A DNA stretch of 64,000 nucleotides, from positions 19,841-83,840 of the forward strand of contig JBHLRA010000001.1 of NCBI GenBank assembly GCA_048883045.1, given 5' to 3'. Below, in pieces: positions 5,186-46,135 of the stretch. The DNA comes from Candidatus Thorarchaeota archaeon (GTDB lineage Archaea; Asgardarchaeota; Lokiarchaeia; Sigyniarchaeales; SOKP01). A model generated the notes under the pieces. That model was not told the DNA's origin. It saw only the letters and a list, made by a program, of their open reading frames with translations, and made no database searches. Numbering within the stretch: the stretch's first letter is position 1; each line of letters begins with the position of its first letter. The position numbers and the translations under genes were made by a program.

Positions 5186-5294
5186 AGCTTTTCAAATCTC
5201 CTCATCAAATAAAAAGTTTTATTCCAGGTCCAGCCAGAGGCTATATTTACACAGAATATAATAATATAAACAATAAACAAGAAGGTGAATTTTA

Positions 5295-6573: not shown

Positions 6574-8166
6574 TCATCTTATTCCTGCTAAATATCTTTT
6601 TATTTTCAAAATATTTTCTTCTCTTTCTTTTTTCTTCTTCTCTGAATGAAATAGTTCGTGATCTGCATTTATAATCCTGTGTCTATCTGGAAGTTTTTCT
6701 AAATAATTCTCATCTGGCTTAGCCCTTTTCAAAACTATACTATGATGATACGTTATTATATGTTTGAAAAACTCAAAACATCCCGCCTTTGTACAAATCT
6801 CATGGAGGTCTGAATCCATCCAAGTCTGCTTATAATCTGTGTCCAAATATCTCCCCAAAATATCGTGTAATATTTTATTGGTAAAAAATAGCGTTGATAA
6901 TTTTCTGAAATTATGTCTGCTTTCGTTTGTGCGAATAAAAAAAGGTTTGTTCTGATTTTTCTTAAATTCCTCTACAATTATTGAATCCCAAGAATAAGTC
7001 TCAAAACTGCAATCATCTCCAAAAAACCCGAAACAATAAGGATTATATTCAAGAGATTTATCATATAGCATGTTCCAGAATTTGGAATAGTTTATATCTT
7101 CCCCTCTTCTCTTTCTAGGTTCATAGTCCCAAAATATATTTTCAGTTAATTCTTTTTTCAAAGTTTGCAGCATAGATTCTGAAATTTTATCACTTCTAGG
7201 TATAAGAAAAAAGAAATATATCCGACTTGGAAAGCTTGATTTTTCTAGAGCTGATTCCACTAATCTCTTAATCCCTTCTGGCCTTTTCTTAGAAGGAGTC
7301 AAAATTGCTATCTTCTTTTTCCTACTATCATCACTTCTTATTGTATTTCTGTGCCGTCTAGAGGCTTGAAAATGCTCAATAACAGCATTATCCTTATTTC
7401 TTACTATATCATATATTTGGCAATAAGATAAAGGCAAAGGCCTTATCATTATTTTATCTTTTAAAGATTTAACGCAATCTAGGAGCAGATTTTGATCAAT
7501 TGTTCTATTGTCCTCTAAACATTTCATCTTCCACATTTCCAGCAATCTAAAGGCTCCATCAGTGTAATTAAAATATATAGTGCCAGATAGTAACCGATCC
7601 ATGATGAAATTAACCCCAGGGAATAGCTCTTTGTCTCTATCTCGCATAGAATTAGGGAAGTAAGCTGCAAAATCTATATCTTTCATTTTTTCAAATAGCT
7701 TGGGTTGTTTTTTAACTATCGCATCTGCATCAACACAAACAACTGGTTTACCTGACATCTTTAAGACTCTTTCTATTAACACAGGCTTATATTGAGTATT
7801 CATAACCCACCCACCCAAATCCTCTATGCCTTCTATATAATAATCAAGTTTTAGAGTCTCTAAGGATTTTATAAGATTTTTAACTTCTTTCTCATATGGA
7901 GTGTCTATTGTGAAAAATGAGACCATAACAAATTTAGATTTAGGGTCTATCCCGGTGGTTAATATTTTGGGCTCTTTTCTTACCGAAGGCTTGGGAATTA
8001 AATTTTGATTAGGAGGAGGTTGGGCTGGTTGAGTAAAAACTTCTTTTCTTTGTTCTAATACCCTTTTTTTTACTCTCTTTAAAACTTCTCTTTGTTGAGG
8101 CCAAGAAAACTGGCTATAATTTTTAGGTAAATGTTTTTTTATTGTTTCAAATAGGTCATTATCCAT
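6574..8166 (-). CDS. two-domain nucleotide-sugar glycosyltransferase-like protein
   Basis: 530 aa; basic/Pro-rich N-terminus. GT-A-like domain with PVVCVDADAIV (DxD). Second Rossmann-like block KKKIAILTPSKKRPEGIKRLVES. Confidence 0.5.
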   Translation of the reverse strand: MDNDLFETIKKHLPKNYSQFSWPQQREVLKRVKKRVLEQRKEVFTQPAQPPPNQNLIPKPSVRKEPKILTTGIDPKSKFVMVSFFTIDTPYEKEVKNLIKSLETLKLDYYIEGIEDLGGWVMNTQYKPVLIERVLKMSGKPVVCVDADAIVKKQPKLFEKMKDIDFAAYFPNSMRDRDKELFPGVNFIMDRLLSGTIYFNYTDGAFRLLEMWKMKCLEDNRTIDQNLLLDCVKSLKDKIMIRPLPLSYCQIYDIVRNKDNAVIEHFQASRRHRNTIRSDDSRKKKIAILTPSKKRPEGIKRLVESALEKSSFPSRIYFFFLIPRSDKISESMLQTLKKELTENIFWDYEPRKRRGEDINYSKFWNMLYDKSLEYNPYCFGFFGDDCSFETYSWDSIIVEEFKKNQNKPFFIRTNESRHNFRKLSTLFFTNKILHDILGRYLDTDYKQTWMDSDLHEICTKAGCFEFFKHIITYHHSIVLKRAKPDENYLEKLPDRHRIINADHELFHSEKKKKEREENILKIKRYLAGIR

Positions 8167-8857
8167 CGATAGTATCCTTTTTCATAATCCACATTTGATT
8201 GTAAAATTTTTTATAATTTATATCTATTTTTCTTAAATTAAAACCAAATTTTTTTACAATTGACATCAATTTTTCTTTAGAATAAGTATTTACGTAAGCC
8301 CCTTTATTCTTTCCATCTCTATCATTCCAAGTAAATTTTTCCTTTTTGGGGGGTTTAAACCAGGTGACTATGGCTAATTCTTTGGTAGTTCTAAGTAAAT
8401 TTGCAAAATAATTATATCCATCATAAGGATGCTGATGTTCCAAAGTATGTCTAGTATATATTATATCAAATTCTTTATCCTGATGCCTGCTAGTTGCTGG
8501 ACACAAATCCCAAAAAGACCCAACGCTAAAACAAGAATTATAATTATTGAATTTCTTTCTAGCATATTTAACAAACTGCTCTGTTATTTCCCAGCCCTTA
8601 TAAATTATATGCCCCATCTCGTGAAGATATTGGAAACAATGTTCAAAATCATAACCGTTACCGAACCCTATTTCAAGAAAAAGTTTTTTGTTTTTATTGC
8701 CTACATAATCTCTTATAATATAATAGGCCTCTTCTCGACCATAAGCATAATTATGGGCTAAGAATTTACACCATTCTTCATAGGATATTTCATTCAGCCA
8801 AGGGGCTTTAAAATCGTGATTGAAAATATTAGAGTTTTTTATAGTTTCTATTTTCAT
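8159..8857 (-). CDS. class I SAM-dependent methyltransferase
   Basis: LFLEIGFGNGYDFE (motif I), FDIIYTRHTLEHQ (motif post-II/III). Confidence 0.7.
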   Translation of the reverse strand: MKIETIKNSNIFNHDFKAPWLNEISYEEWCKFLAHNYAYGREEAYYIIRDYVGNKNKKLFLEIGFGNGYDFEHCFQYLHEMGHIIYKGWEITEQFVKYARKKFNNYNSCFSVGSFWDLCPATSRHQDKEFDIIYTRHTLEHQHPYDGYNYFANLLRTTKELAIVTWFKPPKKEKFTWNDRDGKNKGAYVNTYSKEKLMSIVKKFGFNLRKIDINYKKFYNQMWIMKKDTIDG

Positions 8858-27950: not shown

Positions 27951-27952
27951 AT

Positions 27953-28357
27953 ATGAAATCAAAAAAAATATCTTTGGCTAAGCGTAAGATTAAATTTTGG
28001 GAAAGGCGTATATTATCAATAGATCAAAGGCTTGAGAGAAGTAAGGATGGCGTTGAAGAAATAAACGATATCATAAGCAATCCTCCTATAATAGCAGGAA
28101 TTAGAATAAAAATAGATTTGGATTGCCTACTTAGCCTTTCTAAAAAATCTGAATATTTGCTTAAACAATATCAAATTGATTATGGCAAAAGGCAATTATT
28201 TGTTCAATATAGAAGTAAATGGAAAAGTAAATATCTTGAACTTATAGACCCAAGAACTCCTGAAGAAATAGACAAAGGGTGGGATAGTTTTTGGGATCAG
28301 ATTAAAGGTAAAAGAAAGCCTGAAATAAAACTGGATGGCTTTAAAGGCAAATTATGA
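27953..28357 (+). CDS. hypothetical protein
   Basis: 134-aa basic ORF coupled to the flanking glycosyltransferase genes. Confidence 0.55.
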   Translation: MKSKKISLAKRKIKFWERRILSIDQRLERSKDGVEEINDIISNPPIIAGIRIKIDLDCLLSLSKKSEYLLKQYQIDYGKRQLFVQYRSKWKSKYLELIDPRTPEEIDKGWDSFWDQIKGKRKPEIKLDGFKGKL

Positions 28358-29130
28358 AATTATCTTTTATTGTCCCATATAAACACAATTCTGAAAGGCT
28401 TGGACTTTTAGGTGCTACAATAAATAATCTTCCCAAATGGAACAATATAGAAATTTGCGTTTCTGAGCTTGGGGAAAGACCTTGCTTTGAAAACACTTAT
28501 GTCTATAAGATATTGTCTAAATTTTATAATTTAAAATATTGTTTTAATTATTATGGTGGAATATTTAATAGAGCTTTAGCCATCAATATAGGCGCTAAAA
28601 GCTTGGCTACAAATAAAATTTTTTGTCTTTTGGATGGAGATATAGTTTTTAAATATCAAGAAAACACTATATGTGATATTTTAACATATGGCTTCCAACC
28701 TTGTGCAGGTTTTAATTCTATGTATTTTATGAATCCAGAAGAGACTAAAGATTATTTGATAAAAGGAGTTTATCCTTCTAGTCATCCTAGTCATAAGATG
28801 AGATTTTCTAAGCCTGGAGGACTGGCTGGGGGTCTGATAATTATGTCTAAAGATATATTTATGAAAATAAAAGGAATCCCAGAGATGTTCAAAGGGACTT
28901 GGGGCAATGATGATAATGCTCTTTGGTATAAGCTTCAAGCTTATGGTTATTATTTTCGATCTATACCTAGATGTTTTTATCATCTCCATCATTTGCACAA
29001 GACCGAGAAAGATGCAGATATTATGTCTAAGATAGATGAAATAAGAAATTGGACTATTTTAGATTGGAAAAAATATGATAATGAGATAGGCAATAATTGG
29101 GGAATATATGATAATAAAAAATACAAATAA
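28354..29130 (+). CDS. glycosyltransferase (GT2 / galactosyltransferase C-terminal-like)
   Basis: SFIVPYKHNSERL, LLDGDIVF (DxD), GGLIIMSKDIFMKIKGIPEMFKGTWGNDDNALWYKL. Confidence 0.65.
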   Translation: MKLSFIVPYKHNSERLGLLGATINNLPKWNNIEICVSELGERPCFENTYVYKILSKFYNLKYCFNYYGGIFNRALAINIGAKSLATNKIFCLLDGDIVFKYQENTICDILTYGFQPCAGFNSMYFMNPEETKDYLIKGVYPSSHPSHKMRFSKPGGLAGGLIIMSKDIFMKIKGIPEMFKGTWGNDDNALWYKLQAYGYYFRSIPRCFYHLHHLHKTEKDADIMSKIDEIRNWTILDWKKYDNEIGNNWGIYDNKKYK

Positions 29131-29150
29131 AAAGGTTTGGAGGAACTAAT

Positions 29151-29486: not shown

Positions 29487-29491
29487 ATAAA

Positions 29492-30576: not shown

Positions 30577-30936
30577 ATGACGGTATATGATCCAAATGGA
30601 ATTCCTATACTTGGGAAAGAGGATGATGTAAAGATTAAGATAGAAGAATTGAGCAGAAATTTGATGATAGCTAGAGGATTAATTCATCAGCTTCAAGAGC
30701 AGGTGGAGCTTCTGAAGTCAAGCAATACAAATATTTTATGCTTTTTATTCTCTCTTATGAAAAAAACAGACAATAATCGCTTTAGAGTTCCGATTAAAAA
30801 ACTTGAATCTTTAAGGTCTGAATTTTTGAGCCAAAAGATAATTCTTAAAACTTATCAAGATAAGGCTAAAAATGTAGTTATATATCGAGAAGATGTTAAG
30901 CCGGAAAAGGATAATGAAAGTGAAGCCAAAAAATAA
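30577..30936 (+). CDS. coiled-coil hypothetical protein
   Basis: Start at ATG 30577 after AAAAGGAGA. Confidence 0.5.
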   Translation: MTVYDPNGIPILGKEDDVKIKIEELSRNLMIARGLIHQLQEQVELLKSSNTNILCFLFSLMKKTDNNRFRVPIKKLESLRSEFLSQKIILKTYQDKAKNVVIYREDVKPEKDNESEAKK

Positions 30937-31450
30937 CAATAATGCGTTGGTAGAAAATAATATAGGATTGGTATATCATACTATAAAAAGATGTTTTAAT
31001 TTTAAAATTAAAGATTTGTCTAGCCTTAAGTTGACTAAAGATGATCTTTATCAACAGGGCAAATTAGGCCTTATTGAGGCCAGTCAAAGATATGATGAAA
31101 GGCGAGGTAAATTTAGCACTTTTGCTTGTCGATTGATTAGAGATTATATTTATAAGATGATTAAGGATGGATATAAAAATTCTTTTGTCCCTTTGCTAAT
31201 AGATATTCCTGATTACAACTCTATAGAAAAAGCAGAAATGATGATAGATTTTGAGCGATGTTGCAAAAAATATTTGAAGCAAAAAGATATTAATATAGTC
31301 TGTGATCATATCTTTGAGGGCTTGACTTTCAAAGAAATATTTTTGAAAAACGATATGGAAAATGAAATGCAAGCTTTTAGAATTTATAATGAAAGTATTC
31401 AAAAAATTAAAAGACAGATTTGCATAGATTTACATAGAAATAATTCATAA
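30914..31450 (+). CDS. sigma-70 family RNA polymerase sigma factor
   Basis: Region 2: LYQQGKLGLIEASQRYDERRGKFSTFACRLIRDYI; region 4-like EGLTFKEIF...IYNESIQKIKRQ. The start could be 30893 or 30914. Confidence 0.7.
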   Translation: MKVKPKNNNNALVENNIGLVYHTIKRCFNFKIKDLSSLKLTKDDLYQQGKLGLIEASQRYDERRGKFSTFACRLIRDYIYKMIKDGYKNSFVPLLIDIPDYNSIEKAEMMIDFERCCKKYLKQKDINIVCDHIFEGLTFKEIFLKNDMENEMQAFRIYNESIQKIKRQICIDLHRNNS

Positions 31451-31464
31451 ATTAGGAGAATAAA

Positions 31465-31677
31465 ATGTATATAATATTTGGCAAAAAAATATGTAGCGCT
31501 TGTCAAGAGGCTAAAAAAACATTTGAGGAAGATGGAATTGATTATAAATACATAGATTTGGACAATATGAATCTTGAAGAAAAAGCGACTGCCGCTTGGT
31601 ATGAGGCTTTAAAGGAAGATATTATGTTACCTTATATCATAAATACAGATGATGATAGAAAAGAAAAGTTGAGTTGA
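31465..31677 (+). CDS. glutaredoxin/NrdH-like redoxin
   Basis: MYIIFGKKICSACQEAKKTFEEDGIDYKYIDLD (CxxC at the strand-helix junction). Confidence 0.7.
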   Translation: MYIIFGKKICSACQEAKKTFEEDGIDYKYIDLDNMNLEEKATAAWYEALKEDIMLPYIINTDDDRKEKLS

Positions 31678-32317: not shown

Positions 32318-32351
32318 CATCAATAATTTTAAATGGGGAGGATTTTTGAAT

Positions 32352-33302
32352 ATGTCTTGGAAAATCGAAGATTTTAAGTACATGGATGGAGAAGAGGAGA
32401 AAACCTTACAAATAATTGCTACAAACAAATCAGGTGATCCTATCTGGGTTCACGAAAAGGACGGAGTCGAAGCTCCTATTGATGCCAAACATTATTTCAA
32501 CAAAATTCCTGAATTATTGGAAGAAAAAAGGCAACTTAAAGAAGCCAAGAAGCAATTGGAAGGAGAATTTAATGAGCATAGATCGAAATATGAAGACATT
32601 GAAGATCCCCAAGCTGCACTTAAGGCTCTGGAAATTGTTGCGAATTTGGATAGTAAAAAGCTTATTGATGCTAAAAAGGTTGATCAGCTAAGGAATCAAA
32701 TGAAAGAGGATTTCGATAAAGCGATGGAAAAAGAACGGACTGTTCACAAAGACGAAGTAGATAGTTTGAAAGCCCAATTGGAAGATCAAAAGAAAACCAA
32801 TTATGGCCTTACTGTTTCCAATAGTTTCAAAAGTTCCAAGCTTTTGGCTGGTCCTGATGCCATAGTTGGAGTTCCTGTCGATATGATAGAAGATAAATGG
32901 GGCAAAAACTTTTCTACCGAAATCGTTGATGGAAAGCCAGTAACTGTTGGTCATTATGATGATGGGCGACCTATTCTAAGTGATGTAAAGCCTGGAGAAT
33001 TTGCTAGTTTTGATGAAGCTCTTAAAAAACTCATTGATGTTTATCCTAATAAAGCTGGAATTCTTAAAGGAAAACAACAATCTGGCGGAGGCGTTGGCGT
33101 TGGAAATGCTAATAAGGAAGTTAAAAGTGAAGCTGTTAAAGATCTGTCCAGTTATACCCATATTAGCGATTTTAAGACTCCTGCCGAAAAGCAAGCTTTT
33201 ATTGACAAATATGGACTTGAAAAATGGCGAGTTATTCTTAAAAATAGTCGGGGAACAAGCAATGTCGGGCGAGTTAATGATATGGGATCAGTTAATCGAT
33301 AA
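32352..33302 (+). CDS. scaffolding protein
   Basis: 316 aa, long charged coiled coil (EEKRQLKEAKKQLEGEF...), upstream of the capsid gene. SD GGGGAGGA. The track start is TTG 32346. Confidence 0.7.
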   Translation: MSWKIEDFKYMDGEEEKTLQIIATNKSGDPIWVHEKDGVEAPIDAKHYFNKIPELLEEKRQLKEAKKQLEGEFNEHRSKYEDIEDPQAALKALEIVANLDSKKLIDAKKVDQLRNQMKEDFDKAMEKERTVHKDEVDSLKAQLEDQKKTNYGLTVSNSFKSSKLLAGPDAIVGVPVDMIEDKWGKNFSTEIVDGKPVTVGHYDDGRPILSDVKPGEFASFDEALKKLIDVYPNKAGILKGKQQSGGGVGVGNANKEVKSEAVKDLSSYTHISDFKTPAEKQAFIDKYGLEKWRVILKNSRGTSNVGRVNDMGSVNR

Positions 33303-34742: not shown

Positions 34743-34817
34743 GGATATAGAGCAATCAATTATTCATCAGAATAGACAAAGATTGCCATCTTTAATAGTT
34801 AGGAGTTGAAAACGACA

Positions 34818-35813
34818 ATGGCGATGGGGAAAGCTTCTGATTTTCAGGTCTATCATGAACAGTTCTATGGTGGATTATATGAAAAGTTGGCACAGAATGT
34901 TGACATATTCAATGCGGCTTCGAGAAACGCTATCAGGCTGGTCACCGAAGATATGATAGGTGATTACAATAAAGAGTCTTTCTTTGATCGGGTATCTAAT
35001 CTCGTTTCAAGAAGGGATACAACTAGCGTAAGCGCTGCAGCAGATCAAAAGATGACTCAGGGCGAATTAGTTGGCGTCAAGATCAACCGCAAGATCGGAC
35101 CTGTGGCTCAAACTTTGGATGCGTGGGAAAAGATCGGACTTACTGGGCCAGTAGCTATGAAGGAAATGTCCTTTCAATTAGGCAAGCAGATCGGCGAGGA
35201 AATGGCCCATGATATGGTTGAAACTTCGATTCGTTGTGCAGAGTCTGCCCTTTCCGGCGAGGCCGCCAATACTTATGATGCGACCGGCCAGTCTACCACA
35301 ACCATGACCATAACCCACCTCTTTAATGGTTTGAAGAAGTTCGGGGATATGGCATCCAAAATCATAATCTGGATTATGCATTCCAAGCAATATTTTGATC
35401 TCAATATTCAGGCTGCGGCCGATAAGATTTACGAAGAGGCCGGGGTTGTTGTTTATGGAGGTGCGCCAGGAACCGCTGGACGGCCTGTTATCGTAACTGA
35501 TGCCGACGCCCTTAATATCGGCGCAAATTCCAATACCAATACCTATCAGTGTTTAGGTTTGGTAGAAAACGGCGTTGTAGTGACTGACTCTGAATCCAAG
35601 AGGTTAGTGGATGAGATTGTAACTGGTCTTGAAAACTTATCTTTTAGGGTACAGGGAGAGTATGCCTATAATATCAACCTTAAGGGATTCGCTTGGGACT
35701 CTACCAATGGTGGAGCAAATCCGAATGATGCCGCTCTTAGGTTGGCTTCTAATTGGGATAAACAATATTCCAGTGCAAAGAACCTTTTAGGCATCCGTAT
35801 AGTCACTACATAG
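34818..35813 (+). CDS. major capsid protein
   Basis: 331 aa after the scaffold gene; SD AGGAG. GC-rich, Ala/Gly/Thr-rich composition typical of a highly expressed structural gene. Family not assigned by eye. Confidence 0.75.
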   Translation: MAMGKASDFQVYHEQFYGGLYEKLAQNVDIFNAASRNAIRLVTEDMIGDYNKESFFDRVSNLVSRRDTTSVSAAADQKMTQGELVGVKINRKIGPVAQTLDAWEKIGLTGPVAMKEMSFQLGKQIGEEMAHDMVETSIRCAESALSGEAANTYDATGQSTTTMTITHLFNGLKKFGDMASKIIIWIMHSKQYFDLNIQAAADKIYEEAGVVVYGGAPGTAGRPVIVTDADALNIGANSNTNTYQCLGLVENGVVVTDSESKRLVDEIVTGLENLSFRVQGEYAYNINLKGFAWDSTNGGANPNDAALRLASNWDKQYSSAKNLLGIRIVTT

Positions 35814-35842: not shown

Positions 35843-36622
35843 ATGATGTATGTAGTTTTCGAAAAATGGGCATGTGAACGGGTCAAATGGTCTGCTTTAA
35901 TTGCTATTGGGGATTCTATGCAGCAAGGCGGTATGGATACTATTGAATATTTTGTACCGTCTTGCTTTAACCCAGAAATTGGGGATATGCCATTGACCCC
36001 GGAACCTGCTATTGAAGGAATTTTTACATGGCATTGGAATTATTTTGAAATCCAGGAATATTATAAGGCAAAGAGAATTAATGTCTATACTATCGATTGG
36101 GGATTTTTAGGACGAGATAAGGGATATCAATTTATTCTTAAAAATAATACTTTCGTTGAAGGTAAGCCAGACGATAGGTTTAAGGCCTTAAATTGTACTA
36201 TCAAATCAAGTTGGAAAGAGGGCGGGCATATACTTGTAGCCAAACAGAATCATCATCTTGATTGGTATGAAAGAGCTATAAATACTTTGGAGGCCAAAAC
36301 TGATCGAGAAATTAAGATCAGAGAATTTGATGAAAAAAGGCCTTTAGAAAAAGACCTTAAAGGGGCTAGTGCCTTGGTGACTTATAATTCAACTTGTCTA
36401 TATAAAGCCTTAACCCATAAGATTCCTATTTTTTGTAGCAGAGATTGCCCGGCGGCCAATTCTAAGAGTGCCGTGGATTCGAGGATTATTAATACCAATT
36501 TCGCTTTATTGAATGATGTAGGAAAAATTGAAGATCCTATGCCTTTTCTTTCCAATGTGGCATATAATCAATATACCTTGGAAGAAATAAAGGAGGGTCT
36601 TTGGATAAAGGAGCTAATATAA
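35843..36622 (+). CDS. possible GT-B/capsule-synthesis-like glycosyltransferase
   Basis: GHILVAKQNHHLD ... EIKIREFD ... ASALVTYNSTCLYKALTHKIPIF parallels the KpsS/KpsC-type pattern (..vTinStvglEAL..gkPv). By eye only. Confidence 0.35.
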   Translation: MMYVVFEKWACERVKWSALIAIGDSMQQGGMDTIEYFVPSCFNPEIGDMPLTPEPAIEGIFTWHWNYFEIQEYYKAKRINVYTIDWGFLGRDKGYQFILKNNTFVEGKPDDRFKALNCTIKSSWKEGGHILVAKQNHHLDWYERAINTLEAKTDREIKIREFDEKRPLEKDLKGASALVTYNSTCLYKALTHKIPIFCSRDCPAANSKSAVDSRIINTNFALLNDVGKIEDPMPFLSNVAYNQYTLEEIKEGLWIKELI

Positions 36623-36655: not shown

Positions 36656-36931
36656 ATGGCAACTTTGTTATCAGACGTAGTAGAAGTTAGCATTAATGCT
36701 TCGGGATGGAGTGCTGTTCAAATTCCTTCCCAAACTAATGCTGCAAAGTTTCTGGCCAAGTGCCGTGATAACTCCTCCTTTTTAATTAAGAAAGAGAATG
36801 CAGCCTCTAGATATATGACTGTGCCATCGTCTCTTGCTGGCAATATCGACCCTGAGACTGATAGAACTTTATTTTACGTTAAAGGTACTACAACTACGAC
36901 GTTGGAAGTTCTATTGCAGAGAAAGCCTTAA
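36656..36931 (+). CDS. hypothetical protein (possible head decoration/accessory)
   Basis: 91-aa ORF in the capsid module. Confidence 0.5.
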   Translation: MATLLSDVVEVSINASGWSAVQIPSQTNAAKFLAKCRDNSSFLIKKENAASRYMTVPSSLAGNIDPETDRTLFYVKGTTTTTLEVLLQRKP

Positions 36932-36945: not shown

Positions 36946-38805
36946 GTGGATTTGAATTTGGGCAATTTTGGCATATTGATAGAGGAGCAAGACGGCAGCC
37001 CTTCAGGGTTTTGTACCAAGTTAATAGCCTCTAATGCTTCTTTAACAAATAATGGAGATGGCAGCTTCACCCTTACTACTGGGGGAGGAGTTTCTGACCA
37101 TGGGGCTTTGACTGGTAAGTTAGATGATGATCATACACAATATGGTCTTTTAGCTGGAAGGGCCGGAGGTCAAGCCTTGATAGGCGGTGCAGCTTCAGGG
37201 GAAGGCTTAACCCTTAACTCCACAGCTCACGCTACAAAAGGCTTAATATCTATAGGTGGAGCTCTATATGTGGATGAGGTAAATGGTAGGATAGGAATTG
37301 GCGAAAATGCCCCTACGGCTGATTTTGAAATAAATTCTACAGGCGGAGAAAATATTTATATTTACCGATATGCTACCAGTGCAAATCCTCCAGGTATCAA
37401 ATTTTGGAAAGCCAGAGGAACTGAAGGCTCACCGATTGTAGCCAATGATGCTGATGATACTGGAAAATTTGAATTTTGGGGTTATGCAAGAAATCAAGGA
37501 GATACTGATGATGCATTTGTAAGAACGGGAATGATAATTGCTGAAGTGGATGGAGTAGATGCTCAAGGAAGAATTGGAGGCAGGATAGAATTTTATACAT
37601 CAGCTGGTGTTTCGGTTACTCCAGGAGAAAAGTTTTCTATAGGTAAGGATAACATTGAGGTCTATAAAATTGCGACTGCTACGGCTGGAACTCAGTATGA
37701 TAGTTGGGATTTTAGATTTAGATGTTCGATTTGGGATACAGATAATACTCAGGCTGAAGATAGATTAATATATGCTAGGGCTAATGCTGGAAGTGGAGCG
37801 AATGGTTCAGAACCTTACGATCTTACATTTTATGATAATAGCGATAATGCTGTATTAGTTATAAATCCATTAACCCCTACAATTCAAATTCAACAATATC
37901 TTGGCCATATAGGAGACTCTAACACAGCACTAGAGTTTAATGAGGATAGAATAAAGTATTTAGCAGGAGGAGTTGTTTTTGTAGATATATTTGAAACTAC
38001 TCAAGATGTTATATATCTTGGTAATGGGGCGTTAGGAGTTGGAGGAACTGATATAGATGTTTATATAGGTACCAATAATGCTTTAATGGTGGAAGGTTCA
38101 AGCGGAGACATTACTATTAATAAGAGTGGTACAGCTACAGCTGGAACTCAATATGATAGTCAAGACATTAATCTTATGGCTTCAGTTTGGGATACTGATA
38201 ATACTCAAGCTGAGGATAGAAATATTACTTTGAGGAATGTTGGCGGATCTGGGGCGGATGGATCAGAACCTTATTATTTTGCTGTATTAGATAATGATAG
38301 TAATGAAATTTTTACAGTTGATCCAGTTAATGCTAGAATAGGAATGACTGACAAGTTATATCATATAGGGGATACAAACACTTGGATTCAGTTTACTGGT
38401 GATCAAATAGAATTATCAGCAGGTGGTGGAAATGCAGCAGTTAAAATAGTAGAAGCATCGGAGTTAAGTTATGTCCAAATAACAACAAGTGTAGGGGTTG
38501 AAAGACAGAAAGTTTGGCGTACATCTCTAGCTGATGATGCTACGGATTCTTTAGATATATCTGTGACTGATGCTTGTAGAGGTTTCATAATTTCTTCTAA
38601 TTCTGGAGTAGTGGATGCTTGGGCTGAATTTGTATTAGGAGGAGATGGGAATGTCACCCTTACTAATAATTCTGCCAATGTAGTGGCTAATGCGGATACA
38701 GACGCCAATCTTTGTATTGGTACGGCTGCTGCTCAAGAGCCATTAACCATAAAAAATAGACTTGGCGGAAGCAGAGTGATTCAAATTCATATTTGGTTTT
38801 ATTAA
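36946..38805 (+). CDS. fibre protein (head or tail fibre) with internal repeats
   Basis: VSDHGALTGKLDDDHTQY is a fibre N-terminal motif. Duplicated module TATAGTQYDS.D....S.WDTDNTQAEDR...GSGA.GSEPY. Confidence 0.6.
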   Translation: MDLNLGNFGILIEEQDGSPSGFCTKLIASNASLTNNGDGSFTLTTGGGVSDHGALTGKLDDDHTQYGLLAGRAGGQALIGGAASGEGLTLNSTAHATKGLISIGGALYVDEVNGRIGIGENAPTADFEINSTGGENIYIYRYATSANPPGIKFWKARGTEGSPIVANDADDTGKFEFWGYARNQGDTDDAFVRTGMIIAEVDGVDAQGRIGGRIEFYTSAGVSVTPGEKFSIGKDNIEVYKIATATAGTQYDSWDFRFRCSIWDTDNTQAEDRLIYARANAGSGANGSEPYDLTFYDNSDNAVLVINPLTPTIQIQQYLGHIGDSNTALEFNEDRIKYLAGGVVFVDIFETTQDVIYLGNGALGVGGTDIDVYIGTNNALMVEGSSGDITINKSGTATAGTQYDSQDINLMASVWDTDNTQAEDRNITLRNVGGSGADGSEPYYFAVLDNDSNEIFTVDPVNARIGMTDKLYHIGDTNTWIQFTGDQIELSAGGGNAAVKIVEASELSYVQITTSVGVERQKVWRTSLADDATDSLDISVTDACRGFIISSNSGVVDAWAEFVLGGDGNVTLTNNSANVVANADTDANLCIGTAAAQEPLTIKNRLGGSRVIQIHIWFY

Positions 38806-38828
38806 TTTATTTTAGAAAGGAGTTTTTT

Positions 38829-39542
38829 GTGAAGAAAATATTTATTTTTTCTCTAATTGTGTGTTTCTTTTTTTTCATTTACAATATAGCTATAGCTGCT
38901 AATACTTTTGTAACTGAGGGGTTTGAGGGGCCGGGATATGAAAATGCGGTTTGTGACCCTAATATCATTACATCTTGCTGGACAGAATATACAGATGGAA
39001 ATTCTTTTATAGACTCTGAATATGAATGTTCTTGTAATCCTCCTGAATCTGGTGATTATTGCTTAAGAGCTTATTCAGATGGTAATGGTGAATTAGCAAA
39101 AATTACCTGGATATTAGATGAAATAAGCCCTTATAATGAAGTATCAGTAAGGGTCAAATTGATTGATCATAATCTTGGTAACACTGATCAAGTTCAGATA
39201 GCTAATATTACAACCAATTCTGGAAGTAAGCTTATAATTGTATATTACTATTATTACAATAGTACTATGTATATGGCAGCTAGGTATTTTGATGGAACAG
39301 GAGGCTTTGGGGATAGTGATTTTTATGAAGTTAATGAGAATGATTGGAATTTAGTATCTTTTCAATATGATTCTTCAAGATTAAGGTTTAAGCTTAAAAT
39401 AAATCATAAAACAACCCTAAAAGATACAGATTTAGATAATACTTGGCCAATAAATGCAAGAAAGCTTGATTTAGGAGTTTGTTATAATAATGGGGATGGT
39501 TCGGCTGAAGTTCTTATATCTTCTATGGAATGGGATGATTAG
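38829..39542 (+). CDS. secreted beta-rich protein with N-terminal signal peptide
   Basis: Start GTG 38829 after AAAGGAG; KKIFIFSLIVCFFFFIYNIAIAANT signal-like. Confidence 0.5.
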   Translation: MKKIFIFSLIVCFFFFIYNIAIAANTFVTEGFEGPGYENAVCDPNIITSCWTEYTDGNSFIDSEYECSCNPPESGDYCLRAYSDGNGELAKITWILDEISPYNEVSVRVKLIDHNLGNTDQVQIANITTNSGSKLIIVYYYYYNSTMYMAARYFDGTGGFGDSDFYEVNENDWNLVSFQYDSSRLRFKLKINHKTTLKDTDLDNTWPINARKLDLGVCYNNGDGSAEVLISSMEWDD

Positions 39543-39732
39543 ATTGAATTTTCATTATTGGTTTTCTGTTATTATAGAGATAGTTGGAATATGTACAATA
39601 GGGATTGGCCTAGTTGAAATGTGTCATTTTGGCATGTTAAATCCAGCTAATCTTTTAATAACCAGTGGATCATTGATGCTGGCTATAGGATCGGCTATAT
39701 TTGCTAAATACATCAAATGGAATAGGGAATAA
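39535..39732 (+). CDS. small two-TM membrane protein
   Basis: MIRLNFHYWFSVIIEIVGICTIGIGLV...LITSGSLMLAIGSAIFAKY; ATG overlaps the upstream stop. Confidence 0.5.
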   Translation: MIRLNFHYWFSVIIEIVGICTIGIGLVEMCHFGMLNPANLLITSGSLMLAIGSAIFAKYIKWNRE

Positions 39733-40248: not shown

Positions 40249-40632
40249 ATGGGATTAGTTCCTAAAGATCAGATTAAGTCTATAGTTAACAAATATTTGT
40301 ATGATTCTAGTATAACTAAGTCTGCAATCTATAAAAGTTTGGCTAAATCCCATAGCACAACTACGTTGGAAGTAACTGAGACCCCAACTTTGGTTTCTAC
40401 AAGGGTTTTGCCTATTAAATTCACTAAAACAGAAATAAAGAATTCAGGAGGATCTATCCAGGAGGGAGATCAAAGATGGCTGATACGAGAAAAAGATTTA
40501 TCAGATAATAGCGTTATTCCTAAGATTGGGGATAGAATAACGGTGGATAGCCAAGATTGGGAAGTTTTAGATATAGAAAAAGTGGAAGTGAATGACCAAG
40601 GCCTTATGTGGGAATTTCATTGTAGGTTATAA
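40249..40632 (+). CDS. head closure / head-tail joining protein
   Basis: 127 aa following the adaptor; call rests on synteny. Confidence 0.45.
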   Translation: MGLVPKDQIKSIVNKYLYDSSITKSAIYKSLAKSHSTTTLEVTETPTLVSTRVLPIKFTKTEIKNSGGSIQEGDQRWLIREKDLSDNSVIPKIGDRITVDSQDWEVLDIEKVEVNDQGLMWEFHCRL

Positions 40633-40642
40633 AGGAAAATAT

Positions 40643-41182
40643 ATGCAAACTTGTGCTTTAGTTATTGGCCATAGAAAAGAATCACCTGGGGCTTGTAATG
40701 CTAATTATAAAGATTCAGAATATAAGTTCAATGATGTTTTGGCTGGAATGATAGAAAACAGAATGGAAAAAGGCTCTATCATAAAAGTGTATAGAACCGG
40801 GTCTTATATTAAATTGCCAATACAGATTAATACTTTACTGCCTAGCTTTATATTGAGTCTTCATTGCAATTCTTTTAATAGAAAGGCTTCAGGTACAGAA
40901 GTTTTATATTATGAACATTCAGGTAGAGGAAGGATAATTGCTGGCTTTTTGCAGGAGCGATTGGTCAGATGTTTAAAACTTTATGATAGAGGAATTAAAG
41001 CTAAGAGTGAGGATGATAGAGGAGGATATTTGCTGAAATATACTTCCGCTCCTTGTATAATAGCTGAGCCCTTTTTTATAGATAATGATGAAGATTTACT
41101 TACTGCAAAAGCATTGATGGGGAAGCTCGCAAAAGCTTATGCTGATGCAATATATGAAATATTTAGCTTTTTAAGGAGGTAA
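40643..41182 (+). CDS. N-acetylmuramoyl-L-alanine amidase (Amidase_3-like)
   Basis: ALVIGH..., SLHCNSFNRKASGTEVLYY, YDRGIKAK, IIAEPFFIDNDED. Confidence 0.8.
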   Translation: MQTCALVIGHRKESPGACNANYKDSEYKFNDVLAGMIENRMEKGSIIKVYRTGSYIKLPIQINTLLPSFILSLHCNSFNRKASGTEVLYYEHSGRGRIIAGFLQERLVRCLKLYDRGIKAKSEDDRGGYLLKYTSAPCIIAEPFFIDNDEDLLTAKALMGKLAKAYADAIYEIFSFLRR

Positions 41183-44115: not shown

Positions 44116-44739
44116 ATGGTAAAAAGCGAAAATATTGAATGGGCAACTGACGAAAAATTTAAAAATATTTGGAAAGGCCAAGAAGGTCTTATAATAGGCC
44201 GTGGAGCGGGCCGGGATTATGCTCGCAAAAAGGCTTTGGATGCCTTTGATGGCAAAGTTATAGGCTGTAATGCTGCTTTTAATACCCGATTTTGTGATGC
44301 TATAGTGCTGATGGATGAAAAAGTGTTTATGAATAATAAAGAGGATTACCGGAAATTGGCAAATCAGGGTTCTTATATTTTCGTTATAAATCCTATCTAT
44401 CCTCTATATGGCGTCGAAATAGTGGGCTTAGAGGCCAGAAAACCTGCAAGGTGCTCAAATAGCTTTGATACAGGATTTTACCCTTGCCGACTAAGTGGTT
44501 ATATAGCTGTGAATGTGGCTATATTGATGGGTCTTAATCCTATCTATTTGTATGGATTTACTCCTTCTAAGGCTATTGATGAAAAGGTTGTTGAGAGGAG
44601 TTTTGATTTTGATCCTATAGCAGATTATTGCTATAATAACGGAATCAAAATATATACCACTAACCGAGATCCAATTATGGAACTTTATTTTGAATATAAA
44701 TCATTAAGTAAAAGGAGGTGTGATGAAAATCTATCATAA
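44116..44739 (+). CDS. DUF115/MAF_flag10 (MptE-like)-type putative glycosyltransferase
   Basis: GLIIGRGAGRDY...FDGKVIGCNAAFNTRFCDAIVLMDEK resembles the Maf/DUF115 Rossmann core. By eye only. Confidence 0.4.
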   Translation: MVKSENIEWATDEKFKNIWKGQEGLIIGRGAGRDYARKKALDAFDGKVIGCNAAFNTRFCDAIVLMDEKVFMNNKEDYRKLANQGSYIFVINPIYPLYGVEIVGLEARKPARCSNSFDTGFYPCRLSGYIAVNVAILMGLNPIYLYGFTPSKAIDEKVVERSFDFDPIADYCYNNGIKIYTTNRDPIMELYFEYKSLSKRRCDENLS

Positions 44740-45169
44740 AATCTGGAATAGACATCCTCCTGATGATTCTATATTACCTGGAGATGGGAATGTAATCCAT
44801 CACATAGATTTTGATCATTATAATGATGATCCTGACAATTTACAGAAAATGACAAGAGCAGAACATAATGTTGTTCATTTTAAAGATAGGCCCGCTCCAA
44901 AAATAGCAAAACTTAAAACTGGATTAAGACTGTCTTATGAGACTAGAATGAAACAAAGTAGAATAATGAAAGAAAAATATAGCAATGGAAATCATCCTTT
45001 ATGTGGAATAAAAAGAGATGATATAATTGGCGATAACAATCCAATGGCTGATCCAATTATAAGAGAGAAGCAGAGAATAAATATAGGAAAGGCTCAAAGG
45101 AAAAGAAGGTTAAAAGAAAAAATCAGCAAAATGAATCTACTTTTAATCTTTGGTAACTTATTGAATTAA
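44723..45169 (+). CDS. HNH homing endonuclease
   Basis: YHKIWNRHPPDDSILPGDGNVIHHIDFDHYNDDPDNLQKMTRAEHNVVH; NUMOD-like GNHPLCG/DNNPMAD. Overlaps the upstream gene by about 17-20 nt. Confidence 0.85.
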   Translation: MKIYHKIWNRHPPDDSILPGDGNVIHHIDFDHYNDDPDNLQKMTRAEHNVVHFKDRPAPKIAKLKTGLRLSYETRMKQSRIMKEKYSNGNHPLCGIKRDDIIGDNNPMADPIIREKQRINIGKAQRKRRLKEKISKMNLLLIFGNLLN

Positions 45170-45184
45170 AGGAGGTAATTAGCT

Positions 45185-46135
45185 TTGTCATGGTTAAAAG
45201 GATACAAAACCCAGATGCTTCTGGATTGGGAGGATACTTATGGAGATGATCCAAGTGCTGCTTCAGCTTATAAAGTCCCTTTTAATACAGAGGATCTGAC
45301 TCAGAATCAGCCAAATCAGCACGCTGCTACGATTAGGAATAATCGGAATCCAACTAAGCCTTTTAGAGGCAATAAGGATGCTGCTGGAACTATTGTTGTG
45401 CCTGCTGATTTAAGGGCTTTAGGACTTTGGTTGAAAGGGGCTTTCGGATCTCCCACAACCACTGGGTCAGCTGATCCTTATACTCACACTTATAAAATAG
45501 GAGATAGCGTGCCTAGTTTCTTGTTAGATATAGGCCATACAGATGGGACTCTCTATTATAAGTATAATGGGTGTAAAGTTAATACTTTTGGAATGACTGT
45601 TGGAGGAGACGGGGAGCTTGTGGCTAATGTTGGGGTTATAGCTGCCAAGGAGACTAAAGGAGTTTCGGCCTATGATGGTTCTCCAACGGATTATTCTAGT
45701 GTGACTACGAGGTTTGAAAACTTTGAGGCTTCGGCTTCTGAGGGTGGGTCCAGTATAGCGTATTTGACTGAGTTTGCTTTTGAACTCAACAATGGTCTTG
45801 TACCGGCCTATTGTATAGGTGATGCAGGGACTAAGAGTGATTTAAGTGGAAATTTGGTTGTTGTGACTGGATCTATTACTGGATTGTTCCAAGATGATGC
45901 TCTATTGGTTAAAGGAAGAAATGCAACAGAAACCTCTTTGCAAATTGTTGTAACAGATGGTTCTTATAGTATAACATTTAACATGGATGAACTTGTTTTG
46001 GACCCAACCACGCCTCCAGTTCCAGGACCTGAAGGCTTAATGTTAAACCTTAATTATGAGGCCTATTATGATAATGGGTCAGATGCTTCGGCTTTAAAAG
46101 CCATACTAGTCACCAGTGTAGCATCTTATGCTTAA
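45185..46135 (+). CDS. major tail (tail tube) protein
   Basis: 316 aa, TTG start 9 nt after AGGAGG; located immediately before the chaperone/frameshift/tape-measure trio. Confidence 0.7.
   Translation: MSWLKGYKTQMLLDWEDTYGDDPSAASAYKVPFNTEDLTQNQPNQHAATIRNNRNPTKPFRGNKDAAGTIVVPADLRALGLWLKGAFGSPTTTGSADPYTHTYKIGDSVPSFLLDIGHTDGTLYYKYNGCKVNTFGMTVGGDGELVANVGVIAAKETKGVSAYDGSPTDYSSVTTRFENFEASASEGGSSIAYLTEFAFELNNGLVPAYCIGDAGTKSDLSGNLVVVTGSITGLFQDDALLVKGRNATETSLQIVVTDGSYSITFNMDELVLDPTTPPVPGPEGLMLNLNYEAYYDNGSDASALKAILVTSVASYA

What the first reader, a model, noticed from the sequence alone, without database searches (positions are those of the whole stretch)
35843..36622. Glycosyltransferase-like genes embedded inside the capsid and tail modules: possible virion glycosylation
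A KpsS/KpsC-like GT-B candidate (..ASALVTYNSTCLYKALTHKIPIF..) sits directly after the major capsid gene. A DUF115/Maf-like candidate (44116-44739, GLIIGRGAGRDY..VIGCNAAF..IVLMDEK) sits directly before the tail tube gene. Maf/DUF115 proteins glycosylate flagellin in bacteria. Glycosyltransferase-dependent virion glycosylation has been reported for some mycobacteriophages. Transferases placed next to the two most abundant virion proteins, plus the clusters at 3488-8857 and 27114-29130, fit a dedicated capsid/tail glycosylation system. Both family assignments are by eye only.
Basis: inference. Interest (0 to 1): 0.62.

Follow-up and report, generated by a model that had tools for sequence, protein, structure and literature searches.

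The report
Glycosyltransferase-fold genes tied to capsid and tube
An uncultured tailed phage carries two small genes with sugar-transferase folds, one always next to the major capsid gene and one always next to the tail tube gene, which suggests but does not prove that it coats its own particle with sugars.

Summary
Both ORFs are real genes under purifying selection (dN/dS about 0.1).

ORF1 (35843-36622) models as a compact GT-B. Its best solved matches are the beta-Kdo transferases WbbB and KpsC. ORF2 (44116-44739) matches the CstII sialyltransferase (GT42) and MptE/DUF115.

The new evidence is comparative. ORF1 relatives, down to 28% identity, sit directly after a Gp13-like capsid gene in 9 of 9 lineages where the upstream gene could be read. 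ORF2 relatives sit just upstream of a Phage_tube_2 gene in every contig with downstream sequence, even where the head module differs. Caulobacter jumbo phages carry both families in one cassette with a methyltransferase and a GT9. ORF2-like domains are also found fused to a GT domain homologous to window gene 6574-8166.

The main caveat is that both window clades have lost hallmark motifs. ORF1 lacks the QxxxD Asp and the HP His that its sister subfamily keeps. ORF2 lacks GGPS and a His-bearing insert. No donor-synthesis genes or acceptor motif were found.

Virion glycosylation is the best reading (about 0.45) but is unproven. A role as a non-catalytic specificity or assembly factor is a serious rival.

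The parts
35843..36622 (+). ORF1, 259 aa. A compact GT-B-fold protein of a large, mostly phage and metagenomic family related to KpsC/KpsS/WbbB beta-Kdo transferases and Pfam DUF6716. It belongs to a derived clade that lacks the QxxxD Asp and the HP His.
   Evidence: AF2 pLDDT 86. Foldseek PDB matches WbbB and KpsC. 1350 representative relatives. Pfam hits in relatives. Profile against the KpsC sequence, E 0.009. hhalign against the sister subfamily, E 4e-47. dN/dS 0.12.
44116..44739 (+). ORF2, 207 aa. A minimal sialyltransferase-like (GT42/DUF115-MptE/Maf-type) fold protein. It belongs to a derived clade that lacks the GGPS loop and a His-containing insert.
   Evidence: AF2 pLDDT 70, pTM 0.73. 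Foldseek PDB matches CstII and MptE. BFVD matches include MptE-like, DUF115, GT29 and poxvirus sialyltransferase. A5 profile against the CstII sequence, E 8e-5. hhalign against the DUF115-like clade, E 3e-23. dN/dS 0.10-0.13.
34806..35813 (+). Major capsid protein (Gp13-like). It is the constant upstream neighbour of ORF1-family genes and the presumed acceptor or partner.
   Evidence: Pfam PF20036 8.4e-93. Synteny in L002, L003, L004, L008, L010, L043, L045, L048 and L049.
45185..46135 (+). Tail tube protein (Phage_tube_2). It is the constant downstream neighbour of ORF2-family genes and the presumed acceptor or partner.
   Evidence: Pfam PF18906 6.4e-46. Synteny in at least 12 contigs.
44720..45169 (+). 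HNH homing endonuclease inserted between ORF2 and the tube gene. It is not part of the system.
   Evidence: HNH_3 5e-5 and PHROG HNH. Present in L009 and absent from L013.
6574..8166 (-). Two-domain glycosyltransferase, 530 aa. Its aa 72-278 are homologous to the GT-A domain that other phages carry fused to an ORF2-like domain (a Rosetta-stone link to ORF2).
   Evidence: Pfam Nucleotid_trans 0.0057. phrog_14945 glycosyltransferase 2.5e-10 at aa 282-491. phmmer 1e-18 to 7e-25 against the fusion proteins of L024, L028-L032, L035 and L036. Pfam on those fusions.
8159..8857 (-). SAM-dependent methyltransferase next to the two-domain GT. It is a possible glycan methyltransferase. Methyltransferases recur beside or fused to ORF2-like genes elsewhere.
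   Evidence: Methyltransf_23 2.9e-6. MTase fusions or neighbours in P0185, P0192, L021, L007 and Caulobacter phage C2 gp167. No direct homology to those MTases was detected.
28354..29130 (+). GT-A-type glycosyltransferase. Whether it belongs to the same system is uncertain, because its neighbours are nucleotide-metabolism genes.
   Evidence: Glyco_transf_7C 1.1e-7. phrog_1721 5e-5. MazG at 29151-29486 and NUDIX at 29986-30525.

Best explanation
ORF1 and ORF2 are late-module, soluble, glycosyltransferase-fold proteins, each dedicated to one abundant virion subunit. ORF1 is a KpsC/WbbB-like GT-B paired with the Gp13-like major capsid protein. ORF2 is a CstII/DUF115-like fold paired with the Phage_tube_2 tail tube protein.

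The proposed mechanism works as follows. The proteins act in the cytoplasm on unassembled or assembling subunits, in the way the Maf and FlmG enzymes glycosylate flagellin before export. They probably use a host-made CMP-activated ulosonic acid (Kdo or a sialic-acid-like sugar). They may work together with the phage's other transferases (6574-8166, possibly 28354-29130) and its methyltransferase (8159-8857).

What is shown: the folds, the superfamily links, the synteny, the co-occurrence of the two families, the domain fusions and purifying selection.

What is inferred: catalytic activity, the donor sugar, and the capsid and tube proteins as acceptors.
For: Fold and family:
- ORF1 matches WbbB and KpsC. 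Its relatives hit Capsule_synth and DUF6716. A family profile hits KpsC.
- ORF2 matches CstII and MptE. A family profile hits CstII at 8e-5. Relatives hit MptE-like at 2.5e-6 to 5e-4. The BFVD list includes DUF115, GT29 and sialyltransferase entries.

Synteny:
- An ORF1-family gene starts about 30 nt after a Gp13-like MCP gene in the window clade (L002, L003, L004, L008, L010).
- The same holds in 4 of 4 sister-subfamily cases that still carry QxxxD and HP (L043, L045, L048, L049). These phages have different tails.
- ORF2-family genes precede a tube gene in every contig with downstream sequence. Gaps are 1-5 nt in four lineages. The pairing persists in phages with a different capsid type and no ORF1 (L006, L007).

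Functional linkage:
- Caulobacter phage C2 gp163 (ORF2-like), gp164 and gp165 (ORF1-like), gp167 (MTase) and gp168 (GT9) form one cassette after the tail genes.
- ORF2-like domains are fused to GT29, to MTases, and to a GT-A domain homologous to window 6574-8166.
- In L024, a DUF115-GT-A fusion sits directly after a Gp13-like MCP gene.
- Pelagibacter phage Mosig and podovirus MW202713 hold ORF1-like genes inside sugar cassettes.

Other points:
- Isolates with homologous tubes or capsids lack both genes, so they are add-ons and not core structural genes.
- dN/dS is about 0.1.
- Precedent exists: virion glycosylation of capsid and tube in mycobacteriophages (PMC12619734 and PMC11256854, citing Freeman 2023), and soluble Maf and FlmG flagellin transferases of exactly these two fold classes (bioRxiv 10.1101/2022.03.25.485807).
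Against: - Neither ORF hits any Pfam, PHROG or NCBIfam model at threshold.
- The ORF1 clade has deleted the GDAQ stretch that carries the QxxxD nucleophile Asp. It has F or Y where the sister subfamily has the HP His. In KpsC and WbbB these are catalytic or CMP-binding residues.
- The ORF2 clade has GRG or GSG in place of GGGPS. It lacks the HWHDGHP insert of its nearest DUF115-like relatives, and no equivalent of the CstII catalytic His188 was found.
- Foldseek TM-scores are modest (0.37-0.52), and the ORF2 model is only of medium confidence.
- No CMP-sugar, Kdo or nonulosonic-acid synthesis gene was detected in the 64-kb window.
- No acceptor signature was found. The conserved tube motif GAPxTTGS is also present in a Nostoc phage that lacks ORF2. 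There are no C-terminal extensions like those reported for mycobacteriophages.
- There are no experimental data.
Confidence: 0.45

Rival explanations
1. Non-catalytic GT-fold proteins (pseudo-enzymes). The window's ORF1 and ORF2 clades descend from transferases but now act as substrate-recognition subunits, chaperones, or minor decoration or assembly factors for the capsid and tube proteins. Any sugar transfer would be done by the other phage GTs (6574-8166, 28354-29130). The analogy is the inactive GT-B protein GtfB, which presents the acceptor to GtfA; this comparison rests on my own knowledge.
For: - Both clades have lost hallmark motifs, while close relatives at the same genomic position keep them.
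- Coupling to one structural gene each is tight, down to 1-5 nt.
- The window encodes other, more canonical GTs.
Against: - Many polar residues shared with the whole superfamily are still invariant in ORF1: D85, R112, R160, S183, Q243, E248, plus the clade-specific Q135-N-H-H. That fits a retained ligand site.
- ORF2-clade proteins are themselves fused to enzymes (GT29, MTase).
- There is no evidence that either protein is in virions.
Confidence: 0.25
2. Active glycosyltransferases with a non-virion target, such as host envelope glycans (LPS, capsule, flagellin or pilin, for example to block superinfection or re-adsorption) or phage DNA. On this reading, their position beside capsid and tube genes reflects permissive insertion sites and inheritance with the module, not substrate choice.
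For: - The same intergenic site before the tube gene also accepted an HNH endonuclease.
- ORF1-family genes in Pelagibacter phage Mosig and podovirus MW202713 lie in sugar cassettes away from capsid genes.
- Phage GTs are best known for DNA and host-serotype modification (PMC12619734).
- The 28354-29130 GT sits among nucleotide-metabolism genes.
Against: - The association is with a particular protein family, not a position. ORF1-type genes follow Gp13-like MCP genes in 9 of 9 lineages across different tails. ORF2-type genes follow the tube module even when the head module is replaced.
- Stop-to-start gaps of 1-5 nt imply co-expression with late structural genes, which is poorly timed for DNA modification.
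- No lysogeny genes were seen in the window.
Confidence: 0.2
3. ORF2 is an MptE-like pyrophosphokinase or another nucleotide-utilising enzyme and not a transferase of sugars. ORF1 is a generic Rossmann-type ligand-binding protein.
For: M. jannaschii MptE (HPPK) is among the top structural matches of ORF2. The Pfam family hit by relatives is named MptE-like.
Against: - Sequence-profile hits go to GT42 sialyltransferases, not to MptE.
- The fusion partners are GT-A, GT29 and methyltransferase domains.
- The genomic partners are KpsC-like and GT9 genes.
- There is no folate-pathway context.
Confidence: 0.03

Closest known systems
KpsC / KpsS / WbbB retaining beta-Kdo transferases (CAZy GT107 and GT99; Pfam PF05159 Capsule_synth)
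   Same: - Two-Rossmann-domain GT-B-like fold; these are the best solved-structure matches of ORF1.
- A family profile aligns to KpsC through the QxxxD strand-loop and the S-x-x-x-E-A-l-x-G-x-P-V helix.
- The sister subfamily of ORF1 keeps invariant QxxxD and HP and hits Capsule_synth.
   Different: - ORF1 is 20-35% smaller.
- It lacks the nucleophile Asp and the HP His and has Tyr where the conserved helix Glu sits.
- It is not in a capsule or O-antigen locus. It follows a phage capsid gene.
- No relatives were found in 185,579 bacterial and archaeal species genomes with the patterns tried.
CstII / CstI sialyltransferases (GT42) and the DUF115 (PF01973 MptE-like / MAF_flag10) domain of Maf flagellin nonulosonic-acid transferases
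   Same: - Fold.
- Collinear motifs: IIG-x-G...(R/G)CN at the N-terminus and SGY-A-N-A-L-G-x-x-I-L-G-F(D) in the core.
- Maf enzymes are soluble proteins that O-glycosylate subunits of a self-assembling polymer in the cytoplasm (bioRxiv 10.1101/2022.03.25.485807).
   Different: - ORF2 is only 207 aa and has no flanking acceptor-binding domains.
- The GGPS loop is replaced.
- No equivalent of the catalytic His188 or of the His-rich insert of its nearest relatives.
- It scores below every curated threshold.
Mycobacteriophage virion glycosylation (Che8, Rita and others; Freeman et al. 2023, as described in PMC12619734 and PMC11256854)
   Same: Phage-encoded transferases, often together with a methyltransferase, are proposed or shown to modify both the capsid and the tail tube subunits.
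   Different: - In cluster F1 phages the GT genes lie near the right end of the genome, not inside the structural operon (PMC11256854).
- Glycans are reported at C-termini of the subunits. No C-terminal extension is seen here.
- The GT classes differ. Here they are sialyl/Kdo-transferase-like.
- Nothing has been shown experimentally here.
FlmG-type flagellin glycosyltransferases (TPR + GT-B)
   Same: A soluble GT-B enzyme that uses CMP-pseudaminic or CMP-legionaminic acid on a polymer subunit. It works alongside, or as an alternative to, Maf-type enzymes (bioRxiv 10.1101/2022.03.25.485807). The window pairs the same two fold classes.
   Different: ORF1 has no TPR acceptor-binding domain.

Membership tests
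Beta-Kdo transferases KpsC/KpsS/WbbB (GT107/GT99; Pfam PF05159) | GT-B-like fold with two Rossmann-type domains | tested here: met
   AF2 model pLDDT 86, pTM 0.82, with two alpha/beta domains. Foldseek PDB ranks 1-14 are WbbB and KpsC, E 3e-5 to 6e-4, TM 0.37-0.47.
Beta-Kdo transferases KpsC/KpsS/WbbB (GT107/GT99; Pfam PF05159) | Match to the curated family model at its gathering score | tested here: not met
   ORF1 has no PF05159 hit. Relatives reach it only weakly: 7 of 54 and 3 of 12, best 6.8e-7. The A3 profile against the KpsC sequence gives E 0.009.
Beta-Kdo transferases KpsC/KpsS/WbbB (GT107/GT99; Pfam PF05159) | QxxxD motif carrying the nucleophile Asp (KpsC D160, WbbB D232) | tested here: not met
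   The ORF1 clade reads Q135-N-H-H-x-(D/E)-W. hhalign and MAFFT both place a deletion over the 'GDAQ' of the sister subfamily, which has invariant Q131/D135.
Beta-Kdo transferases KpsC/KpsS/WbbB (GT107/GT99; Pfam PF05159) | HP motif (His contacting the CMP phosphate) | tested here: not met
   The sister subfamily has invariant R-P-H-P. The ORF1 clade has R160 followed by E/P/A and then F/Y.
Beta-Kdo transferases KpsC/KpsS/WbbB (GT107/GT99; Pfam PF05159) | Transfer of Kdo from CMP-beta-Kdo with retention | not testable with these tools
   Needs an enzyme assay.
Pfam PF20471 DUF6716 (putative glycosyltransferase) | Match at the gathering score (27 bits) | tested here: not met
   ORF1 scores 10.1 bits, E 0.37, at aa 164-201. 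24 of 54 relatives hit at up to 1.5e-7.
GT42 sialyltransferases (CstII) / DUF115 = PF01973 MptE-like (Maf) | Sialyltransferase-like single-domain alpha/beta fold | tested here: met
   Foldseek PDB: CstII, CstI and MptE are the only matches with prob 1.00, E 3e-4 to 2e-3, TM 0.45-0.52. BFVD: MptE-like, DUF115, GT29 and viral sialyltransferases, TM up to 0.66. The model is of medium confidence (pLDDT 70).
GT42 sialyltransferases (CstII) / DUF115 = PF01973 MptE-like (Maf) | Match to the curated model at the gathering score (34.6 bits) | tested here: not met
   ORF2 has no hit at E<=1. 4 of 37 clade members hit at up to 2e-4. Distant relatives score 20-28 bits.
GT42 sialyltransferases (CstII) / DUF115 = PF01973 MptE-like (Maf) | N-terminal G-x-G-P-S-L loop followed by (R/G)-C-N | tested here: inconclusive
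   ORF2 has GLIIGRGAGRDY...VIGCN. G28, G30 and N52 are conserved, but P-S is lost. The distant clade has GGGPSL.
GT42 sialyltransferases (CstII) / DUF115 = PF01973 MptE-like (Maf) | Core motif S-G-(Y/V)...A...L-G...I-Y-L-x-G-(F/I)-D | tested here: met
   LSGYIAVNVAILMGLNPIYLYGF aligns to CstII 132-157. The final Asp is T in the window protein and D, N, T or S in the clade.
GT42 sialyltransferases (CstII) / DUF115 = PF01973 MptE-like (Maf) | Catalytic base (CstII His188) downstream of the core motif | tested here: not met
   No conserved His after the core motif in the ORF2 clade. The HWHDGHP insert of the nearest DUF115-like clade is absent.
Phage virion glycosylation systems (mycobacteriophage type) | Glycans covalently attached to capsid and tail tube subunits, dependent on phage GTs | not testable with these tools
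   Needs mass spectrometry or glycan staining of virions or of co-expressed proteins.
Phage virion glycosylation systems (mycobacteriophage type) | Acceptor region at the C-terminus of capsid and tube subunits | tested here: not met
   The MCP ends ...GIRIVTT and the tube ends ...VASYA. Both C-termini are short and conserved, with no extension.

The most novel reading that the evidence does not exclude
A widespread, previously unrecognised arrangement in environmental siphophages, in which each major virion polymer has its own dedicated, gene-adjacent glycosyltransferase-fold partner. A KpsC-like GT-B pairs with Gp13-like capsids, and a GT42/DUF115-like protein pairs with Phage_tube_2 tubes. 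Together they install CMP-ulosonic-acid-type sugars (Kdo or sialic-acid-like) on heads and tails. In the window's lineage, the motif-degenerate versions act as acceptor-specificity subunits for other phage GTs. This would extend virion glycosylation beyond actinobacteriophages and would be a phage counterpart of Maf/FlmG flagellin glycosylation.
Probability: 0.25. Interest if true: 0.8.

Novelty: new variant of a known kind. Interest (0 to 1): 0.6.

Why it matters
If these proteins modify the capsid and tube, phage particle glycosylation is not peculiar to mycobacteriophages. It would be a recurrent trait built into the structural operon of many uncultured phages, using sugar classes (Kdo or sialic-acid-like) that bacteria use for capsules, LPS and flagella. 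That bears on phage stability, adsorption, immune recognition in therapy, and on how virion protein masses and cryo-EM densities are interpreted.

The comparative result also gives a concrete annotation for two unannotated protein families. One has at least 1350 representative clusters. It also names cultured test systems: Caulobacter phages C2, CcrSC, CcrBL9, CcrColossus and CcrPW, and Pelagibacter phage Mosig.

If the window's motif-degenerate clades turn out to be inactive, they would be examples of viral pseudo-glycosyltransferases recruited as structural-protein partners.

Tried and rejected
1. Direct family scans of both ORFs (Pfam, PHROGs, NCBIfam) gave nothing usable. Shallow-alignment PDB sequence searches also failed: A1 gave no hit, and A2 and A4 gave only chance ribosomal S3 or pectin lyase hits.
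2. hhalign of the ORF2 family against the single CstII sequence was weak (E 0.011, probability 4%). The recalled CstII sequence was first verified against PDB entry 2wqq. The link became significant only with the broadened A5 profile.
3. There are no paralogues of ORF1 or ORF2 elsewhere in the window.
4. Acceptor motif hunt: TTT runs occur in the MCP, the tube and the 91-aa protein. The tube GAPxTTGS motif is conserved, but it also occurs in Nostoc phage JY21, which lacks ORF2. I therefore rejected it as an acceptor signature.
5. The promoter and terminator scan of 34.4-47.1 kb found no more sites than shuffled sequence.
6. Donor-synthesis genes (Kdo, NulO, CMP-sugar): none were detected among the ORFs scanned. 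The window may not be the whole genome.
7. Bacterial and archaeal genome scans for the ORF1 clade and its sister subfamily found no relatives. Alignments A3 and A6 were too diverse for the pattern tool.
8. The window methyltransferase 8159-8857 is not detectably homologous to the MTases fused or adjacent to ORF2-like genes.
10. Freeman et al. 2023 could not be read and is cited only through other papers.
11. Literature searches for DUF6716, for DUF115 with phage, and for Maf or sialyltransferase with tail tube found no prior description.
Full report
**Context.** The window is part of a low-GC (about 33%) tailed phage genome. It carries:
- replication and recombination genes (RecA/UvsX-like, gp32-like, helicase, primase);
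- a large terminase with an intein, a portal, and a Mu-F-like protein;
- a rightward late operon: scaffold (32346-33302), major capsid protein (34806-35813; Gp13-like, 8.4e-93), connector and terminator genes, tail tube (45185-46135; Phage_tube_2, 6.4e-46), chaperones and tape measure.

**Observation.** ORF1 (35843-36622, 259 aa) starts 29 nt after the capsid gene's stop and contains the quoted motif. ORF2 (44116-44739, 207 aa) contains the quoted motifs. It is separated from the tube gene by a 149-aa HNH endonuclease ORF (44720-45169). That HNH is also in the closest relative, L009, but not in L013. In other relatives the gap from the ORF2-like stop to the tube start is 1-5 nt. So 'directly before the tube gene' is true of the lineage, not of this window. 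Both ORFs have full-length homologues (8 and 6 by single-sequence search). dN/dS is 0.12 for ORF1 and 0.10-0.13 for ORF2, against 0.06-0.07 for capsid and tube. They are real genes.

**ORF1, what it is.**
- No curated model matches ORF1.
- The AF2 model from 9 sequences is confident (pLDDT 86, pTM 0.82). It shows two alpha/beta domains.
- Foldseek against the PDB puts the retaining beta-Kdo transferases WbbB (GT99) and KpsC (GT107) in ranks 1-14 (E 3e-5 to 6e-4). Other GT-B enzymes follow. TM-scores are modest (0.37-0.47) because ORF1 is much smaller.
- An exhaustive profile search finds 1350 representative clusters at E<=1e-3.
- Of 54 sampled members, 24 hit DUF6716 (best 1.5e-7) and 7 hit Capsule_synth, the KpsC/KpsS family (best 6.8e-7). 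Some are fused to GT2, FkbM methyltransferase or MptE-like domains.
- The family profile hits the KpsC sequence in the PDB (E 0.009). The alignment runs through the QxxxD strand-loop and the conserved S...EA..G.PV helix.

**ORF1, the catch.**
- The nearest subfamily (alignment A6; hhalign to the ORF1 clade 100% probability, E 4e-47, full length) has invariant Q-x-x-x-D, a following His, and R-P-H-P. These are the QxxxD and HP hallmarks of beta-Kdo transferases.
- The ORF1 clade reads Q135-N-H-H-x-(D/E)-W. The four residues that include the nucleophile Asp are deleted. It has F or Y in place of the HP His.
- Other superfamily-wide residues (D85, R112, R160, S183, Q243, E248) remain conserved.

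ORF1 is therefore either a transferase with a changed mechanism or donor, or a ligand-binding pseudo-enzyme.

**ORF2, what it is.**
- No curated model matches ORF2.
- The AF2 model is of medium quality (pLDDT 70, pTM 0.73).
- In Foldseek against the PDB, the only matches with probability 1.00 are the CstII and CstI sialyltransferases (GT42) and M. jannaschii MptE, a DUF115 protein (E 3e-4 to 2e-3).
- In BFVD, many small uncultured-phage proteins match. So do entries named MptE-like, DUF115, GT29 and poxvirus or herpesvirus sialyltransferases.
- A profile search enlarged the family to 37 proteins. Four of them hit Pfam MptE-like and three hit GT29.
- More distant relatives from metagenomes hit MptE-like at 2.5e-6 to 5e-4, always below the gathering score. 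They are homologous to the ORF2 clade by hhalign (99.5%, E 3e-23).
- A combined profile (A5) hits the CstII sequence at E 8e-5 in two collinear blocks. The top eight PDB hits are all GT42 enzymes.

The catch again is motif loss: the ORF2 clade has GRG or GSG where relatives and CstII have G-(G/N)-G-P-S. It lacks the His-rich insert of its relatives, and no counterpart of CstII His188 is seen.

**Synteny, the strongest new evidence.**
- Window-clade ORF1 homologues lie about 30 nt after a Gp13-like capsid gene in L002, L003, L004, L008 and L010.
- All four sister-subfamily proteins for which upstream sequence was available do the same: P0021, P0030, P0034 and P0053, at 27-29% identity to ORF1 and with intact motifs. 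These phages have different tail types.
- ORF2 homologues precede a Phage_tube_2 gene in every contig with downstream sequence, at least a dozen contigs.
- L006 and L007 have a different capsid family and no ORF1-like gene but keep the ORF2-tube pair.
- Isolates with homologous tubes (Nostoc, Janthinobacterium and Acinetobacter phages) go straight from terminator to tube with no ORF2. The nearest capsid relative, Tunturiibacter phage Tunturi_4, has no ORF1.

The two genes are therefore accessory. Each travels with one particular structural protein family.

**Functional linkage.**
- In Caulobacter phage C2, gp163 is ORF2-like (family HMM 8.8e-6; Pfam MptE-like 4e-5). gp164 and gp165 are ORF1-like (3e-28, 3e-59). 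gp167 is a SAM methyltransferase and gp168 a GT9-type transferase. All sit in one block after the tail genes.
- ORF2-like domains occur fused to a GT29 sialyltransferase domain (L012/P0173, above the Pfam threshold), to methyltransferases, and to a Nucleotid_trans GT-A domain.
- That GT-A domain is homologous (1e-18 to 7e-25) to aa 72-278 of the window's 530-aa protein at 6574-8166. The C-terminal half of that protein matches a PHROG glycosyltransferase (2.5e-10).
- In L024, such a fusion lies directly after a Gp13-like capsid gene.
- In L007, a methyltransferase and a GT2-like gene lie between the ORF2-like gene and the tube gene.
- ORF1-like genes also sit in sugar cassettes in Pelagibacter phage Mosig and in podovirus MW202713, next to a DegT aminotransferase.

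These links tie both families to glycan assembly. The 28354-29130 GT is flanked by MazG, HAD-like and NUDIX genes, so it may instead serve nucleotide or DNA modification.

**Mechanism.** The best-supported reading is that these are late, soluble GT-fold proteins, each specialised for one virion polymer subunit. They would act before or during assembly. The known parallel is flagellin glycosylation, where Maf (GT42/GT29-like) and FlmG (GT-B) enzymes attach CMP-activated nonulosonic acids to flagellin in the cytoplasm (bioRxiv 10.1101/2022.03.25.485807). Both solved-structure neighbours of the window proteins use CMP-ulosonic acids. This suggests a Kdo or sialic-acid-like donor taken from the host, since no donor pathway was found in the window.

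Activity, donor and acceptor are all inferred. The motif losses make a non-catalytic role (specificity subunit, chaperone or decoration) a serious rival. A non-virion target cannot be excluded.

**Novelty.** Virion glycosylation by phage GTs is known for mycobacteriophages. There the GT genes lie elsewhere in the genome and the glycans sit at subunit C-termini (PMC11256854, PMC12619734). I found no description of KpsC-like or DUF115-like genes locked to capsid and tube genes. I rate this a new variant of a known kind, with moderate-to-high interest. It is testable in cultured Caulobacter phages and by co-expression.

Noticed in passing
window 15332-17740 (-): The large terminase gene (802 aa) carries an intein: Terminase_6N at aa 37-256 and Intein_splicing at aa 487-774. 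A nested same-strand ORF at 15504-16124 may be the intein's endonuclease part.
   Followed up: no
window 5983-6573 (-) and 44720-45169 (+): There are two HNH homing endonuclease genes. The first also has NUMOD3 motifs, and both lie beside glycosyltransferase-type genes. The second is present in L009 and absent from L013, so it is a recent insertion.
   Followed up: partly
window 40592-41182 (+), with 38793-39542, 39490-39732 and 41824-42324: An Amidase_3 endolysin (4.7e-21) sits in the middle of the head-tail connector region. Small ORFs with hydrophobic N-termini (possible holin, spanin or lipoprotein) lie nearby. This is an unusual place for lysis genes, and the arrangement is conserved in L002.
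   Followed up: no
window 36656-36931 and 36946-38805 (+): A conserved 91-aa protein and a 619-aa protein follow ORF1 in the closest relatives but are absent from L004. The 619-aa protein has a conserved N-terminal 134 aa and a variable remainder. They may be a decoration protein and a head fibre, and possibly alternative acceptors.
   Followed up: partly
window 28354-30525 (+): A GT-A glycosyltransferase (Glyco_transf_7C) lies next to a MazG pyrophosphohydrolase, a HAD-like ORF (DxDxT motif by eye) and a NUDIX hydrolase. The arrangement resembles a nucleotide or DNA hypermodification module.
   Followed up: no
window 30893-31450 (+): This is a homologue (2.5e-72) of the L002 gene that carries Pfam Sigma70_r2, so it is probably a phage sigma factor just upstream of the late operon. 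A glutaredoxin-like ORF at 31465-31677 follows it.
   Followed up: no
L001 (Caulobacter phage C2) 6441-10971, gp163-gp168: A six-gene block annotated as hypothetical is a glycan cassette: DUF115-like, two KpsC-like, one unknown, a SAM methyltransferase and a GT9-like gene. It lies between the tail genes and the lysozyme gene. It is shared by Bertelyvirus phages, CcrSC, CcrBL9, CcrColossus and CcrPW.
   Followed up: partly
L004 15877-16443; L038 (Tunturiibacter phage Tunturi_4) 1567-2565: Other sugar-type genes are embedded in structural operons of relatives. One is a CmcI/Methyltransf_24-type methyltransferase right after the tape measure gene in L004, which is absent from the window. The other is a GT2 gene between terminase and portal in Tunturi_4.
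   Followed up: no
L050 (Pelagibacter phage Mosig) 4147-9981: A cassette holds two methyltransferases, two annotated glycosyltransferases, a sulfotransferase and two ORF1-family genes (Mosig_00187 and Mosig_00185). It lies next to the ribonucleotide reductase genes.
   Followed up: no
window about 18000 and about 59500: GC and AT skew change sign at these points. They match switches of coding strand: leftward genes at 1-18 kb and again beyond about 59.5 kb, and rightward genes from 19.6 to about 59 kb.
   Followed up: no
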